A stretch of DNA of 64,000 nt from Octopus vulgaris (GCA_951406725.2 OX597819.1:120838001-120902000), one strand, 5' to 3'; shown: positions 3,590 through 52,319, counted from the stretch's first letter. Translations and numbers: made by a program. The notes: generated by a model not told the origin, from the letters alone.

Positions 3590-3805
3590 TGTTAATCCAA
3601 ACAAGAAAGCACAAAAAAAAACACAACAACGCGAGGACGTGGAACAAATATAGAATTATTGGACGCTCAGGAAAGAAGGAAAGAAGGAGGGTTTAACGTT
3701 TCAAGCGGAGCTCTTCGTCGGAAACATACGAGAAGGAAAGATCCAGAGAAGGGAACACAGAGGAAAAGAAATCGCCAACGGTACACACGAGGTCACATTT
3801 TGAAA
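3590..3805 (-). mobile_element. Short non-coding hammerhead-bearing element (family A, PLE-terminus-like)
   Basis: Three copies (3590, 27888, 30480), each adjoining (TA)n. Minus strand 3691-3725 reads GTTT CCGACGA A GAGC TCC GCTT GAAAC GTT AAAC. Confidence 0.7.
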
Positions 3806-3824
3806 TATATATATATATATATAC

Positions 3825-4015
3825 GCTTTATTTAAAAGCAGTAGAAAATATAACAAAAGCTGTTGCTCAGAGTTTCACGTTCCCGTTCTTCGGATAGTTT
3901 TGTTTCATCGGGAACGTGAAACTGAGTAACAGCTTCTGTTATAAAGCCTATTACTCTACCTCTTGTATTAAGTACTCTTTTTACCACCTTGTTTCACATT
4001 TATGTGCTTACTCTG

Positions 4016-4019
<4 letters not shown>
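3825..4019. mobile_element. Fold-back PLE-terminus-like element (same family as 28598-28860)
   Basis: Inverted arms tataacaaaagctgttgctcagagtttcacgttcccg / cgggaacgtgaaactgagtaacagcttctgttata. The tail tattactct...tttcacatttatgtg is shared with 28790-28858. Flanked by (TA)n. Confidence 0.7.
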
Positions 4020-4050
<31 letters not shown>

Positions 4051-16164: not shown

Positions 16165-16453
16165 GTGTATAAGTTTATCAATTCGTTTTGAAAGATTCCT
16201 GGTGTGAAATCGTGCGTTGAAACAGATATTGTTGTATTTCGGAATAGTCATTTTATTTATTTATTTATTTATTTATTCATTCATTTACTCTTTTACTCTT
16301 TTACTTGTTTCAGTCATTTTACTGTGGCCATGCTGGAGCACCGCCTTTATTTTATTTATTATTTTTTTTTTGCCAAATAAGCACACGCATTATATTTTTA
16401 CTTCTTCACTCGTTTATTACTGTCCTTATTTTATTAATTTAACTCATGTGCTC

Positions 16454-16499
16454 TGTCCAGAAATCTTTCGTCACACATCTGTGAACTCTTCAGTGACAC
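16454..16499 (-). ncRNA. Minimal type-I hammerhead ribozyme motif in the PLE 3' pLTR
   Basis: gtgtca CTGAAGA g ttcac agatgt gtgac GAAA gatttc tggaca. Confidence 0.65.
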
Positions 16500-16787
16500 T
16501 TTTCGTTTCCGTGAGTGTTCTTGCTCCACTCACTCCATTCTGTTCTTCTAAGATGTGTATCCTTATGTGCGCATGCGTTTGTGTCTTCGTTTGTGTGTGT
16601 GCTTGTGTGAGTATGTGTATGTTTCAGTGTGTGTCATAATTTTCAGTGGCAGTGTGGCTTTCCTCTCGGCCCCAGCCTCTCACCTCATTGTGCTACTGCT
16701 GTCCTAAGATCCGGGAAAAATATAGGAAGGTACAGTTCCTGTATTCCTCTGTGCATGTGTGGTTCATCCACGGTGTTGCCATCATGG

Positions 16788-16819
<32 letters not shown>

Positions 16820-18800: not shown

Positions 18801-19161
18801 ACGCTGGTCACCTCCACAAATTTCTCCACCGCAAAATCAACATCAAAGGATGGGTATAGGGACGATGGTAATAACAACAACAACAAGCGCCACTATGGCA
18901 ACGCCGTGGACGAACACACATACACCGAGGAATACAGGAGCTGTAGTTCCCCTTTTCTTTTACTCGGCTCTTAGAACAGCAGCAGCATAATGGGGACCGA
19001 GGGGAAGGCCACACTTCTGAAAACTAACACACACACAAGCATACACACACTCACAAACACACACAAACAAACAAGGACACAAACGCATGTGCACATAAGG
19101 ATACACATCTTAGAAGGACAGAATGGCGTAAGCAGAGAAAGAATACACAGGGAAACGAAAA

Positions 19162-19207
19162 GTGTCGCTGAAGAGGTCACAGATGCGTGACGAAAGATTT
19201 CCGGACA
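19162..19207 (+). ncRNA. Minimal type-I hammerhead ribozyme motif in the inverted pLTR
   Basis: gtgtcg CTGAAGA g GTCAC agatgc GTGAC GAAA gatttc cggaca. Helix II is a perfect 5 bp and the putative cleavage triplet is UUC. Confidence 0.75.
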
Positions 19208-19333
19208 ATGAACAGGCATTAAAATAATAAAATAACAGTTGTAATTGAGTGAAGAAAAAAATATAGTGCGTGTGTTTAATTGGCAAACAAAAAAAAAAAC
19301 AAAACAAACAAAATGAAATGACTATCCCGAAGT

Positions 19334-19378
<45 letters not shown>

Positions 19379-27858: not shown

Positions 27859-27887
<29 letters not shown>

Positions 27888-27892
<5 letters not shown>

Positions 27893-28470
27893 AAACATGA
27901 ACAAGCAAGAAAAAACAACGCGAGGACGTGGAACAAGTACAGTGTTATTGGATGCCCAGGAAAGGAAAAAAAAGAAAAAGGATTTCACGTTTCTAGTGGA
28001 GCTCTTCGTCAGAAATATGGAAAAAGTCCAAAGAAGGGAAGACGGAGAAAGAAAATCGCCAACGATACACACGAGGTCACATATTATATAGTGAGAATTT
28101 ACAAAACAAAAAACAAAAACAAAAGACAGAGACGGGTGTGTAAACAACAAATAGATGTATTAGTTTAACGCTCAGGAAGTGAGAAAGTCTTTTACGTTTC
28201 GAGCCCACGCTCTTCTGCAGAAAGGAACGCAAAAATAAATAGGGAGAGAAAATACATATATAATGTATATGTATATGTATACATATAGTTCAAATTTACA
28301 GAAAACAAGTGTAGGAGCAAGTAGCAGGTATATTAGCTTACGGGTCGGGTAAAATGGAAAAGTCGTCTTCGTTTCGAGGCTACACTCTTCGATAGAAAGG
28401 ATTAAGAGGAAACAAGCAGAGGGAGAAGGATAAAAAAATAGAGAGAAGAAATGTGTAGAGATTAACGGTC
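27888..28470 (-). mobile_element. Cluster of three related hammerhead-bearing short elements
   Basis: Motifs at 27982-28016 (ATTT CTGACGA..GAAAC GTG AAAT), 28189-28224 (CTTT CTGCAGA A GAGC GTGG GCTC GAAAC GTA AAAG) and a degenerate one at about 28365-28400. TA-rich spacers separate them. Confidence 0.7.
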
Positions 28471-28526
28471 CAACAGGATAATGATGATGATGATGACGAC
28501 GACGACGGCGATATATATATATATAA

Positions 28527-28597
<71 letters not shown>

Positions 28598-28598
<1 letters not shown>

Positions 28599-28856
28599 TT
28601 TATTTAAAGCAGCAGAAAATTCAACAAAACCTGTTACTCTGATTTTTCCGTTGCCGTTCATCGGACAGTTTTTGCTAGAATGGAACCGACATATCGGTTC
28701 CATTCTAGCAAAAACTGTCCGATGAACGGCAACGGGAAACTCAGAGTAACAGGTTTTGTTGAATTTCCTGCTGCTTTAAATAAAGCATATTACTCTGCCC
28801 CTGGTATTTGAGTACTCTTTTTTCCACCTTGTTTCACATTTATGTGTTTACTCCGG

Positions 28857-28860
<4 letters not shown>
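28598..28860. mobile_element. PLE-terminus-like element with a 188-bp near-perfect palindrome
   Basis: 28598-28785 has 92-bp arms, a 4-nt loop (cata) and 3 mismatches. The plus arm contains CCGATGA acg gcaa cgg GAAAC TC. Flanked by (TA)n. Confidence 0.8.
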
Positions 28861-28898
<38 letters not shown>

Positions 28899-28901
<3 letters not shown>

Positions 28902-30434
28902 CAACAATTGAGGGTAAAATTAATTAATTAATCAATTTCACCAAGTGTTCAGTATGTAAAAGGACCATTTAAGGCGAATTCAAAATTTTACATTATATAA
29001 TTAGGGCTTAGTAAAATAAATTACTTTGCCACATACTGAACTTAGTAGAAATAGCAGCCAAAAAAAAATTTTCTTAGCATTTCTACAACTTAAAGAAAAT
29101 TTCTCTCAGATAATGTTTACTCTAGACAGCCCACGAAGGTTTGGAGGTAAATACAGAAAAATATCACAAGTACATAGTTCGTTTGAGTACGTCAACGTTT
29201 CAAGATTAGCCAAATAAAATCAGCATTTCTATCGTCAGCTCAAAATTTCTTAATTTGGATTTGGAAACACTAAAAAGAAGGAACTTTACCTATCAGCGAA
29301 CTTATCGCTTCAGATGAACCACTCCGACTAACAGTGTCAACAAATTCAAAATGCGCAGGCGTAAATTTCATCAATCCGCTTCCACCCGCGTGGTCTATCT
29401 AGCAAACATTATATTTTAACCGCGAGAACCGAGGCAGTATGACCGAGAGAAATGAATTATAATATCAATAATTGAGGGTAAAATTAATTAATTAATCAAT
29501 TTCACCAAGTGTTCAGTATGTAAAAGGACCATTTAAGGCGAATTCAAAATTTTACATTATATAATTAGGGCTTAGTAAAATAAATTACTTTGCCACATAC
29601 TGAACTTAGTAGAAATAGCAGCCAAAAAAAAATTTTCTTAGCATTTCTACAACTTAAAGAAAATTTCTCTCAGATAATGTTTACTCTAGACAGCCCACGA
29701 AGGTTTGGAGGTAAATACAGAAAAATATCACAAGTACATAGATCGTTTGAGTACGTCAACGTTTCAAGATTAGCCAAATAAAATCAGCATTTCTATCGTC
29801 AGCTCAAAATTTCTTAATTTGGATTTGGAAACACTAAAAAGAAGGAACTTTACCTATCAGCGAAGTTATCGTTTCAGATGAACCACTCCGACTAACAGTG
29901 TCAACAAATTCAAAATGCGCAGGCATAAATTTCTTCAATCCGCTTCCACTGCCTCGGTTCTCGCGGTTAAAATATAATGTTTGCTAGATAGACCACTGCC
30001 TCGGTTCTCGCGGTTAAAATATAATGTTTGCTAGATAGACCACGTGGGTGGAAGCGGATTGAAGAAATTTACGCCTGCGCATTTTGAATTTGTTGACACT
30101 GTTAGTCGGAGTGGTTCATCTGAAGCGATAAGTTCGCTGATAGGTAAAGTTCCTTCTTTTTAGTGTTTCCAAATCCAAATTAAGAAATTTTGAGCTGACG
30201 ATAGAAATGCTGATTTTATTTGGCTAATCTTGAAACGTTGACGTACTCAAACGATCTATGTACTTGTGATATTTTTCTGTATTTACCTCCAAACCTTCGT
30301 GGGCTGTCTAGAGTAAACATTATCTGAGAGGAATTTTCTTTAAGTTGTAGAAATGCTAAGAAAATGTTTTTTTTGGCTGCTATTTCTACTAAGTTCAGTA
30401 TGTGGCAAAGTAATTTATTTTACTAAGCCCTAAT

Positions 30435-30439
<5 letters not shown>
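28899..30439. repeat. 564-bp unit in tandem plus an inverted copy, embedded in (TA)n
   Basis: 28899-29462 is repeated at 29463-29949 (ORFs 29026 and 29590 are near-identical). An inverted copy follows at 29949-30439, with a 47-bp tandem duplication at the switch point. Confidence 0.9.
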
Positions 30440-30479
<40 letters not shown>

Positions 30480-30667
30480 GTCAATCCAAACATGAACAAG
30501 CAAGAAAAAGGAACAACGCGAGGACGCGGTGCAAGTACAGTATTATTGGACGCTCAGGAAAGGAAAGAAAAGAAAGAGGATTTCACGTTTCGATCGGAGC
30601 TCTTCATCAGAAATATAGAAAAAGTTCAAGAACGGGAGAGAAAGGAAATCGCCAACCATACACACGT
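30480..30667 (-). mobile_element. Hammerhead-bearing element family A
   Basis: Minus strand 30580-30614 reads ATTT CTGATGA A GAGC TCC GATC GAAAC GTG AAAT. Homologous to 3590 and 27888. Confidence 0.75.
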
Positions 30668-30938: not shown

Positions 30939-31498
30939 TTGGAAAGAAGGGATAGAATCGACGAGACTAATTTCATTTTTACTCATTTTATCGATCCTGA
31001 AATGAAATCTGGAATCCATTAACACCACGTAAAATTTGAACACCGAGCAGAAAGTGGCCTGGCCCAAAAATCCTTTTAAGCCTCTTCTCACTGACCGCTT
31101 ATTAATCATTGAACAATTTAAATGGTTATTGCTTCACTGTTTCACGGTTCATGTGGCTATCAGTGAGGTAACATGTGGCGTAATTTACATCTAATTTGTG
31201 GAAAGACTATTGCTTGTGAAAGAACATTTGTCACATTGGAAAATATCTTGCCACCGCAGGAAAACAACATTGTCATGTGAAATATCATAACATTTGTCAT
31301 TTTTAACTTGAGATCCAACAGAGCACAGAGAAATTTATTTTTTCCAAGCTCTTTCCTTAATGGTATTAATATTCAGGATGACCAAAGGAAGAGAGTTTGT
31401 TTGATAAATGTAATGTATTTGGTTAAGAATATGAAAAAAAAATGATGGTAGAGAAGTTTACATAAGCCGTTGCTTTCACGGTATCTGTAGCCATATCT

Positions 31499-32221
31499 AA
31501 GGTGGCGAGCTGGCAGAAACGTTAGCACGCCGGGCGAAATGCGTAGCCGTATTTCGTCTGTCGTTACGTTCTGAGTTCAAATTCCGCCGAGGTCGACTTT
31601 ACCTTTCATCCTTTCGGGGTCGATTAAATAAGTACCAGTTACGCACTGGAGTCGATATAATCGACTTAATCCGTTTGTCTGTCCTTGTTTGTCCCTTGTG
31701 GGTAGTAAAGAAATAGGTATCTGTAGCCATATTTATGGGGGCGAGCTGGCAGAAACGTTAGCACGCCGGGTGAAATGCGTAGCAGTATTCCATCTGCCGC
31801 TACGTTCTGAGTTCAAATCCCGCCGAGGTCGGCTTTGCCTTTCATCCTTTCGGGGTCGATTAAATAAGTACCAGTTACGCACTGGAGTCGATATAATCGA
31901 CTTATTTCGTTTGTCTGTCCTTGTTTGTCCTCTCTGTGTTTAGCCCCTTGTGGATAGTAAAGAAATAGGTATCTGTAGCCATATTTAAGGCGGCTAGCTG
32001 GCAGAAACGTTAGCACGCCGGGCGAAATGCGTATCCGTACTTCGTCTGTCGCTACGTTCTGAGTTCAAATTCCGCCGAGGTCGACTTTGCCTTTCATCCT
32101 TACGGGATCGATACATTAAGTACCAGTTACGCACTGGGGTCGATGTAATCGACTTAATCCGTTTGTCTGTCCTTGTTTGTCCTCTCTGTATTTAGCCCCT
32201 TGTGGGTAGTAAAGAAATAGG
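31499..32221 (+). mobile_element. Three tandem SINE S1 copies (tail type 1)
   Basis: Copies start at about 31499, 31736 and 31987, each bounded by ggtatctgtagccayat. Confidence 0.9.
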
Positions 32222-33614
32222 TATCTGTAGCCACATCACGAAATATGAATATAAAATGGTGGGCGCAAGCTCTAGCTGCCATAATTCACGAAATAAATAC
32301 GCTTGCTTATTTGTCATTAGCTGTCCACTGCGTACAATGCTAACCATGTTCTACGTTTGAATATTTTTCGATTAGTTTATATCCCAGTTTTCGATGGGCA
32401 GCCTCGGTTGTAATCTGGAAATGTAACTACACAAACGTACATGCACACATACACACAAATACGTACACTCCAAGACAGACACACATGCAACGATTCTATA
32501 TTCTAGATCGTCGCTTATTCTGCCAGAAATAACAATGAATAATCCTTCGTGCCTTAAATGAAGAGCAGATATAATGGAATAAGCATTCTTAGATGGTAAC
32601 CAAAAAAAACCAACAAACAACCAAATGAATAAAAGTGTTCATGGCTGGAATGATTGTGAACACAGTTCGGTTTTAACGTAGCTTAGCTGTGAACATAGAT
32701 CTAATTAATCACGGCAGTAACATCTGTGAACGTAGATATACTTGTTCACAGCTGTCTTGGGGATACACACCATCATCAATTTAATCTGACAATCGCCTGG
32801 ACTTCCACTACCTGGACCGCTTTAGTTGTTTTAGTAGAGGCCAGTTTGTTAGGAGCATTTTTGTCTTCCGTTCAATATTGTCGATGGCTCAGACAAAGTG
32901 TCAACGAAACTGTCTTCTTCCTCTTTCTAATCAATCAATTTATTAAGAAACTGTATCTAACGTTTACATACTTCGCACAGTACACACCACAAGTAGTTAC
33001 CCTGTCGCACTATACTCTCAAATACACAGCAAATATTTCTCACTAACGTTTACACAACAGACAGGATAGACCTGCTATAAACACATTTGGTTTATGAGTT
33101 ACTTTAACAGAGTTTACTTTGTTGCAAAGAACCATACTGAATTCTTGCATTCTGTATTTCGTTCCACGCACGCATTGATCTGAAGATGTTCGAAGTGCTT
33201 CAGACTGATCTTACTGAAATCTTACTTCCTCACTTCTAACAAATTTACAGAAAACTGTTCCTTCATATGCTTTGAATAACGATTTATTGTATTGGCATGG
33301 TGAAAGAAATTTTTCAACAGAGGGTAACCGCGTCACGTCAATCTCAGTTCTTGACTTGGTAAAAAATGTAAAGATAAGGCCTGAAGGGATTCCAACTCAG
33401 AATGTAAAGGTTCGTAACTAAATACTCGAAGCATCTTATCCAATTCTCCGATGCTCTAGAAGATTCTGCGAAAGTTCCAAATAATATTATACGAAATTCA
33501 GTACACTAATTCTTCGAATATCGCAAGTGTTACCTTCCCAACGCATAGTTGAAAATCCGCGGAATAGAAACAGTACTGTACTGTATATATTATTATTACT
33601 ATCTTTATAGTGAT

Positions 33615-39832: not shown

Positions 39833-39981
39833 TTATTATTTACATTATATACATTTGCCGGATATTTGTCCTCATTTTGTTTGTTGTTAACACAACATTT
39901 CAGCTGATATATCCTCCAGCCTTCTTCAGGTGTCTTGGGGAAATTTCGAACCTGTGTTCTCATTCCTAAGGTATTTTTCGA

Positions 39982-51976: not shown

Positions 51977-52319
51977 AGAGTTCTATATTTAAGAGATGAG
52001 GAATTATGTACATTATTTACATTATTTACATTTGACGGATATTTGTCCTCATCTTGTTTGTTGTTAACACAACGTTTCAGCTGATATACCCTCCAACCGT
52101 CATCAGGTTCCAAATTTCCCCAGGACACCCGATGAGGACTGGAGGGTATATCAGCCGGTAGGAGTGGCTGTGTGGTAAGTAGCTTGCTTACGAACCACAT
52201 GGTTCCTGGTTCAGTCCCACTGCGTGGTACCTTGGGCAAGTGTCCTCTACTATAGCCTCAGGTCGACCAAAGCCTTGTGAGTGGATTTGGTAGACGGAAA
52301 CTGAAAGAAGCCCGTCGTA

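What the first reader, a model, noticed from the sequence alone, without database searches (positions are those of the whole stretch)
27888..30667. Hotspot of short non-coding hammerhead elements strung along a (TA)n tract, with helix-I covariation
Seen: within 2.8 kb, at least five short ORF-less elements separated by TA runs carry CYGNNGA...GAAAC motifs. Across related copies the outer helix-I pair covaries: GUUU/AAAC (3691-3725), AUUU/AAAU (27982-28016, 30580-30614) and CUUU/AAAG (28189-28224). Helix II is GAGC/GCUY in the two best-paired copies, and helix III shrinks to the palindrome around ACGU. Established: such minimal hammerheads occur in PLE pseudo-LTRs and are reported to cleave as dimers. 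Inference: several retrozyme-like or solo-pLTR families target (TA)n and pile into each other. Two copies have a GUG triplet and one has core CUGCAGA, so individual copies may be dead.
Basis: partly seen in the sequence, partly recalled or inferred. Interest (0 to 1): 0.75.

Follow-up and report, generated by a model that had tools for sequence, protein, structure and literature searches.

The report
Penelope pile-up with variant hammerheads
Six pieces of Penelope-type jumping genes from four families sit side by side in one TA repeat; the predicted self-cutting RNA motif they carry is a known kind, but two lineages spread with changed core letters that would likely weaken cutting.

Summary
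The motifs and helix-I pairs are real, but these are mostly not small retrozyme families. The 2.8 kb holds six insertions anchored in (TA)n. Families A and C are 3' (pseudo-LTR) ends of Neptune-type Penelope-like elements (PLEs), and B is one of a Hydra-clade PLE; all three were walked into RT and GIY-YIG frames elsewhere in the genome. Earlier scan notes report that footprint for other families in this genome. PLE hammerheads, (TA)n targeting and tails are published. The odd letters are not single-copy decay: GUG marks a subfamily (58 of 100 listed), and family C (13,904 exact hits) has U at core position 6 in 96 of 100 while N7 varies freely, also in runs under four organism labels. I found no natural U6 core in print, but could not read one key paper. 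Cleavage is untested.

The parts
27862..27888 (.). (TA)n tract at the 3' end of the first A copy
27889..28085 (-). Family A, subfamily A1: 5'-truncated 3' end (pLTR) of a Neptune-type PLE; minimal hammerhead 27982-28016, core CUGACGA, GUG triplet, helix II damaged
28090..28254 (-). Family C, subfamily C1: pLTR end of a sister Neptune-type PLE; hammerhead 28189-28224, core CUGCAGA (family state CUGUNGA), GUA triplet, helix II intact
28287..28478 (-). Family C, old subfamily C2 (73-82% to its relatives); decayed hammerhead (CUAUCGA, GAA)
28511..28597 (.). (TA)n tract
28598..28689 (-). Family B inverted, tail-less arm; hammerhead broken in the GAAAC strand
28694..28856 (+). Family B tailed arm: pLTR end of a young Hydra-clade PLE (97-98% to top copies); hammerhead about 28715-28752 with CCGAUGA core, ACUC-A-GAGU pseudo-palindromic helix III, GUA triplet; 66-nt tail
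28857..28901 (.). (TA)n tract
28902..29465 (-). Family D full 564-bp ORF-less unit with 87-nt tail at its 3' end; hammerhead 29182-29244, canonical core, GUA triplet, predicted cut between 29188 and 29187
29466..29949 (-). Family D second, 5'-truncated unit (484 bp), head to tail; second hammerhead 29748-29806
29948..30445 (+). Family D inverted, tail-less arm with a 47-bp duplication at the inversion joint; third hammerhead 30191-30249
30435..30478 (.). (TA)n tract shared by D and the second A copy
30479..30667 (-). Family A, subfamily A1, second independent copy; hammerhead 30580-30614, core CUGAUGA, GUG triplet

Best explanation
This is a (TA)n microsatellite holding six insertions of Penelope-like retroelements from four families, likely written one after another by target-primed reverse transcription, each bringing the predicted hammerhead of its pseudo-LTR. 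Shown: A and C are 5'-truncated ends of Neptune-type elements, B of a Hydra-clade element, and D is an ORF-less 564-bp tandem unit; all have fixed 3' ends on TA and ragged 5' ends. Inferred: the GIY-YIG endonuclease nicks TA-rich DNA; the RT starts at a fixed internal site 100-290 nt downstream of the hammerhead, so even short copies keep the motif; TA stays on the flanks as a target, so the tract was hit by old (C2), middle-aged (A1, C1) and young (B, D) families. Inferred: for B and D both cut DNA ends are primed, one from each of two start sites, giving one tailed and one tail-less arm; D borrows a PLE enzyme (parent not found) and is copied from an uncut multimer or a circle. Inferred: fast self-cleavage is not needed for spreading, since lineages with G17 (A1) and U6 (C) multiplied, but the fold is still under selection.
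For: A: fixed 3' end and staggered 5' ends in 30 loci; the walk reaches RT, CX4CxxC linker and GIY-YIG; 6.17-kb tandem units, 99.4-99.8% alike, with 883-898-codon frames and an A-type hammerhead in every pLTR; Pfam RVT_1 E 0.0006-0.001 and GIY-YIG E 0.008, below curated cut-offs; homologues carry PF00078 and PF01541. C: matching ORF pieces, 40-70% identical to the A-type protein, lie upstream of the C hammerhead in sense in L369-L372 and L374, and L370 reads ORF end, hammerhead, ORF start. B: pLTR runs into an ORF with RWK, DKT and CxCX5C, the Hydra marks of PMC8557442 section 11. D: no long frame in six frames of a doubled unit; 2,620 exact 29-mer hits; in 55 loci chosen by that 29-mer only unit sequence, three subfamilies 78-87% apart; 29 of 33 two-armed insertions mixed, P 5e-6 against 0.5 (classified by hand). 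TA flank and clustering. Variants. In vitro, the anole PLE protein starts internally at two sites, extends both strands, and hammerhead mutants insert normally (PMC11167929).
Against: No cleavage, transcript end or circle was observed; the runs were contigs only and none is on record as RNA. D's partner is unidentified: no alignable likeness to the A-type or B-type full units. Clade names rest on motif comparison with published alignments, not on a tree. D covariation does not beat the shuffle control (117 of 500). The B unit is 3.48 kb, longer than the 'generally <3 kb' of Hydra. D 5' ends show at most a weak excess at the cut site (3 of 86 within 2 nt, 0.97 expected, P 0.075), so some cleavage of templates is neither shown nor excluded. 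The 100 listed pattern hits are the first by position, not a random sample. General clustering is modest (3.8-fold); six in 2.8 kb is an extreme case.
Confidence: 0.88

Rival explanations
1. All the short elements are independent non-autonomous retrozyme families.
For: Each copy in the window is ORF-less and most genome copies are short. True for D.
Against: A, B and C each continue into RT and GIY-YIG frames in longer copies; their 5' ends are staggered, not fixed.
Confidence: 0.05
2. U6 and G17 hammerheads still cleave well enough in vivo (as dimers, helped by the PLE protein, tertiary contacts or Mn2+), so the variants say nothing about cleavage being dispensable.
For: The rest of the core stays fixed while N7 and H17 change by clade; G17 occurs in only 1 of 100 listed C copies and 0 of the GGTTT-type A copies listed; natural A6C cleaves weakly in Mg2+ and well in Mn2+ (PMC7151607 passages); G17 is tolerated in tertiary-stabilised motifs (PMC3884650 abstract); the anole PLE motif is protein-assisted.
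Against: G17 strongly impairs minimal motifs and these motifs are minimal; changes at position 6 lower activity. This rival competes only with the last step of the best explanation.
Confidence: 0.45
3. D's tandems grew at the DNA level (slippage or unequal crossover of a solo pLTR), as satellites do, not by reverse transcription of a multimer or circle.
For: Long arrays exist with units 99-100% alike (six units in L325); this route is discussed in bioRxiv 10.64898/2026.07.22.740005.
Against: Arrays are dispersed, TA-flanked, end at the same two unit positions, and often have more than one unit in either arm of a two-armed insertion; no TA lies between units.
Confidence: 0.12
4. The cluster is a local duplication or assembly artefact, not repeated insertion.
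For: Two A1 copies bracket the cluster; D is repeated three times.
Against: The two A1 copies have 15 and 18 differences from their subfamily majority and share 1; D's tandem plus inverted layout recurs on many contigs; the families differ in age.
Confidence: 0.03

Closest known systems
Minimal type-I hammerheads in PLE pseudo-LTRs (Cervera and de la Pena 2014, PMC4209133; read parts 1-2 of 4 and passages of supplement file 2; file 1 not searchable)
   Same: Short helix I, extra nucleotide after A9, G10.1-C11.1, palindromic 15.2-16.2, mostly single truncated copies, some inverted pairs.
   Different: Their consensus is CUGANGAH...NUH; family C has U6 and subfamily A1 has G17; B and young A lineages have C4. 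No cephalopod in the supplement passages seen.
Neptune and Hydra clades of PLEs (Craig et al. 2021, PMC8557442; passages, section 11, supplement part 54 of 59)
   Same: C-terminal GIY-YIG, Zn-finger linker, partial tandems, inverted 5'-truncated arm, tail often at one end only, (TA)n bias.
   Different: Tails here are 66 and 87 nt (30-40 described); B unit 3.48 kb; the one-tail rule is counted here (29 of 33).
Metazoan non-LTR retrozymes (PMC7229834, passages; bioRxiv 10.64898/2026.07.22.740005, parts 1-3 of 5, supplements closed)
   Same: D is an ORF-less tandem unit with a type-I hammerhead in every unit; 564 bp lies inside the 51-972 bp range of the preprint.
   Different: D shows PLE insertion scars (two start sites, inverted arm, TA target); the parts read support the PLE link by co-occurrence and sequence trees. 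Circle and cleavage untested here.
Anole Poseidon PAc in vitro (Frangieh et al. 2024, PMC11167929; parts 1-2 of 4)
   Same: Internal RT start at two sites flanking the tail, both strands extended, hammerhead mutants still insert.
   Different: In vitro no strand preference for start sites was seen; D insertions pair unlike starts non-randomly.
Natural core variants A6C (PMC3088659, PMC7151607; passages) and engineered G17 (PMC3884650; abstract)
   Same: Change at the same positions.
   Different: A6C is from one phage; here U6 is the majority state of a lineage with at least 13,904 copies, and G17 is natural in a minimal motif.

Membership tests
Minimal type-I PLE hammerhead | Core CUGANGA and GAAA | tested here: inconclusive
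   Met by D and A1; B and young A have C4; family C has U6 in 96 of 100 listed
Minimal type-I PLE hammerhead | Extra nucleotide after A9 and G10.1-C11.1 helix II | tested here: met
   A and C: A then GAGC/GCUC. B and D helix II start differently
Minimal type-I PLE hammerhead | Palindromic helix III remnant | tested here: met
   ACGU in A and C; ACUC-N-GAGU in B; ACGU(N0-2)ACGU in D
Minimal type-I PLE hammerhead | Helix I with covariation | tested here: met
   Outer pair G-C, G.U, A-U, C-G by subfamily; one pair only
Minimal type-I PLE hammerhead | NUH triplet | tested here: inconclusive
   Met in B, C, D and most A; not met in subfamily A1, GUG 58 of 100 listed
Minimal type-I PLE hammerhead | Self-cleavage as dimer | not testable with these tools
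   Needs assay
Neptune-clade PLE (A, C) | RT followed by C-terminal GIY-YIG between hammerhead-bearing pLTRs | tested here: met
   (A); pieces in the right order for C
Neptune-clade PLE (A, C) | CX2-5CxxC linker, long spacer to the GIY motif, Neptune-like RT3/RT4 | tested here: met
   and 71 translations against the published alignment, by eye
Neptune-clade PLE (A, C) | Placement in an RT tree with reference clades | not tested
   No reference proteins held as sequences
Hydra-clade PLE (B) | RWK, DKT, CxCX5C linker, divergent RT4 | tested here: met
Hydra-clade PLE (B) | Insertion in (TA)n | tested here: met
   27 of 29
Hydra-clade PLE (B) | Generally under 3 kb (a tendency in the paper) | tested here: not met
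   pLTR-to-pLTR 3.48 kb in L376
Non-LTR retrozyme (D) | Head-to-tail units each with a type-I hammerhead | tested here: met
Non-LTR retrozyme (D) | No coding capacity | tested here: met
   Six frames closed; no D copy continued into its own ORF in 55 loci
Non-LTR retrozyme (D) | Loop 1-loop 2 tertiary contacts of canonical motifs | not tested
   Not examined
Non-LTR retrozyme (D) | Self-cleavage and monomer-length circular RNA | not testable with these tools
   Contigs only, RNA status guessed

The most novel reading that the evidence does not exclude
A very large Neptune lineage has kept a natural A6U hammerhead through many subfamily turnovers and across species while only the free positions changed, and a sister subfamily multiplied with a G17 site. 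The PLE hammerhead fold is then selected for something other than fast Mg2+ cleavage, most simply for pairing two template RNAs through the palindrome or docking the PLE protein, which is what would let both cut DNA ends be primed from different start sites.
Probability: 0.25. Interest if true: 0.7.

Novelty: new variant of a known kind. Interest (0 to 1): 0.45.

Why it matters
What PLE hammerheads do is open: PMC8557442 calls their function unclear and PMC11167929 found mutants insert normally in vitro. This tract gives natural, matched variants (A6 against U6, U17 against G17, ACGU-only against longer helix III) from lineages known to have spread, so 'is cleavage needed, and if not what is the fold for' becomes a small bench test. 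Standard CUGANGA descriptors would miss the U6 lineage, at least 13,904 copies in this genome. The hotspot itself is ordinary PLE behaviour.

Tried and rejected
Rfam at gathering score: no hit. Single-strand folding of 7 motifs: no signal over shuffles. Pfam on four short broken frames: nothing relevant. Search for RNA runs: no RNA holder listed; laid contigs cover D, including the cut site and unit seam, but cannot show ends, strand or circles. Pile-up of D 5' ends at the cut site: 3 of 86 and 1 of 33, not significant. D's parent: no likeness to A-type or B-type units; two D copies next to truncated A-type frames are separated from them by TA, read as neighbours. D covariation test: 1 of 17 pairs with a two-sided change, not above shuffles. 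In one search only 5 of 24 D loci were scored owing to my anchoring rule (4 of 5 TA), so D's TA flank is taken (30 of 30 rows, 25 distinct loci including the window's). Print searches for a natural U6 core: 'hammerhead'+'A6U' (one twister paper listed), core variants, CUGUNGA spellings, PLE+octopus, G17, supplements: none found. Lunse et al. (PMC5785218) and Arkhipova et al. 2017 (PMC5850863) were not held; they catalogue PLE hammerhead variants and may already show U6 or G17. No genome-wide Infernal or R-scape run was possible. No fold or complex job was sent.

Full report
Setting. The window is G000:C6:120838001-120902000 of a 2.8-Gb, 227-contig, microsatellite-rich genome. That it is octopus-like is my recall from size and repeat content, echoed by earlier scan notes; no call named it.

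Observation. A strict type-I descriptor finds 4 hits in the 2.8 kb against a mean of 0.004 in 500 shuffles. The tract holds six insertions: A1 (27889-28085), C1 (28090-28254), C2 (28287-28478), B (28598-28856), D (28902-30445) and A1 (30479-30667). Rfam sees none of them.

Family A. Copies have one fixed end on TA and ragged other ends. Walking from the ragged end passes about 1.8 kb of CA-rich sequence into a frame with RT, thumb, CX4CxxC linker and GIY-YIG motifs. A search with one RT piece listed 150 matches, many in frames of 800-1000 codons. Of 11 stretches fetched around them, 10 show a hammerhead-pattern match of A type, and L357-L358 holds tandem 6.17-kb units 99.4-99.8% alike with the motif in each pLTR. 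Pfam gives RVT_1 and GIY-YIG below curated cut-offs. By eye the motifs match the Neptune rows of the published alignment. An exact 27-mer of the A hammerhead occurs 8,580 times, with 0 for the reversed control. The two window copies are independent: 15 and 18 differences from the subfamily majority, 1 shared.

Family C. An exact 35-mer with three free places occurs 13,904 times. PLE frame pieces 40-70% identical to the A-type protein lie upstream in sense in 5 of 6 stretches fetched, and L370 reads ORF end, hammerhead, ORF start. No intact full-length C element was found.

Family B. Top copies are 96-98% alike. The 3' end is fixed at position 163 of the query; inverted arms, where present, end at position 97, 66 nt short. 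In L375 and L376 the pLTR runs into a broken frame with RWK, DKT and CxCX5C, the diagnostic marks of the Hydra clade, described as inserting in (TA)n.

A 564-bp unit with all six frames closed, 95-99% alike among top copies, 2,620 exact 29-mer hits, three subfamilies 78-87% apart and arrays up to six units. Each unit has a canonical core, N7 in three states, A or U at the cut, a 6-bp helix I and ACGU(N0-2)ACGU helix III; D1 can form a 3-bp helix III as a monomer in prediction. Outer 3' ends fall at unit position 1 or about 88, on TA. In 55 loci picked by the 29-mer on contig 1, I classified 33 two-armed insertions by hand, counting seven look-alike composites once: 29 have one tailed and one tail-less end (two of them with eroded ends), 2 have two tails, 1 none, 1 unclear; P 5e-6 against the 0.5 maximum for independent starts, 1.7e-5 without the two eroded ones. 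Copies longer than one unit pass the cut site without a break, so the template was likely an uncut multimer or a circle. 5' ends at the cut site are 3 of 86, not significant. The parent element was not found. Earlier scan notes describe the same footprint for 360-, 485-, 490- and 535-bp families in this genome; I had counted it for D before reading them and did not check their families. No note matched D by sequence.

Targeting and clustering. TATATA lies at the 3' end in 24 of 26, 19 of 26, 6 of 7, 27 of 29 and 14 of 24 scorable copies of the A, A1, C, B and C1 sets (sets of 30, 30, 20, 29 and 24 loci), against 7-12% at random places in the same loci. Other-family ends number 13 in 69,000 bp within 250 bp of an anchor and 13 in 260,854 bp beyond 500 bp, 3.8-fold, P 6e-5. 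At the far rate 2.8 kb would hold about 0.14 (my arithmetic), so the tract is a real hotspot. The review PMC6765202 (passages) already says PLEs tend to insert next to earlier copies.

Covariation. The outer helix-I pair moves G-C, G.U, A-U within A and is C-G in C; 91.9% of cells pair on an 11-row alignment, 2 of 500 shuffles as high, but only 1 of 9 pairs has a two-sided change. D helix II shows C-G, U.G, U-A at one pair, not above shuffles. Support for the fold is therefore real but modest.

Variant cores. GUG: 58 of the first 100 of 141 exact A1-context matches, against 34 GUU, 4 GUC and 4 GUA (counted by eye); 11 of 26 readable copies chosen by upstream sequence; 4 of the first 100 in all of A. 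It is an old, minor subfamily. U6: 96 of the first 100 C matches have CUGUNGA, with N7 in all four letters, the cut base A or U in 99 and G in 1 (counted by eye); 86 of 96 harvested copies agree. On a tree of 92 copies U6 spans all clades, including short-branched ones, while N7 and H17 switch by clade. In runs under four organism labels U6 makes up 87, 95, 94 and 99% of summed depth at that place while N7 is mixed. Published consensus is CUGANGAH and NUH. Natural A6C is known from one phage and is weak in Mg2+; G17 strongly impairs minimal motifs. My searches found no natural U6, but the paper most likely to list it (Lunse et al., seen only as a reference title) was not held, and its supplement and the closed bioRxiv supplements may bear on this.

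Mechanism. Shown: identities, ends, layout, counts. From established PLE work: AT-rich nicking, internal RT start at two sites flanking the tail, extension of both strands, insertion unaffected by hammerhead mutation. Inferred: repeated TPRT into a persisting TA tract; coupled use of the two starts at the two DNA ends; D moved in trans; cleavage dispensable but fold selected. The last step is close to even against protein- or metal-assisted cleavage.

Verdict. Known kind of element and known targeting; a new retrozyme family and two lineage-wide hammerhead variants. Novelty: new variant of a known kind. Interest 0.45.

Noticed in passing
window 3591-4020: A second, smaller pair: an A2 copy (CCGACGA core, GUU) and a diverged B-type two-armed copy, separated by TA.
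   Followed up: partly
window about 16190-16810 (-) and 18870-19340 (+): Two 79%-alike copies of another element with a hammerhead-like motif (CUGAAGA, GUCAC/GUGAC-type stem, GAAAG); one ends on TA. Family not searched.
   Followed up: no
window 39890-39933 (-) and 52074-52106 (-): Copies of a further PLE-like end with a long helix II minimal hammerhead.
   Followed up: no
L357-L358, L361, L366: Young full-length A-type PLE tandems with C4 core and a U.U mismatch in helix I; many 884-1008-codon frames in the genome.
   Followed up: partly
L244, L249, L254, L292, L295, L321, L324: The same 200-bp two-armed D composite (71 and 221 ends) recurs at several places on contig 1 with alike flanks, so it has been copied as cargo of something else.
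   Followed up: no
L364:1371-2112: Two D-like stretches 67-68% alike with a 577-bp period: a more distant D relative.
   Followed up: no
A and C loci: Adjacent inverted arms look rare in the Neptune-type families (a few of 104 loci) but common in B and D, which also have the longer helix III palindromes; clade and palindrome length are confounded.
   Followed up: partly
window 31480-32233: Three head-to-tail 252-bp copies of a common SINE-like repeat (SINE label recalled).
   Followed up: no
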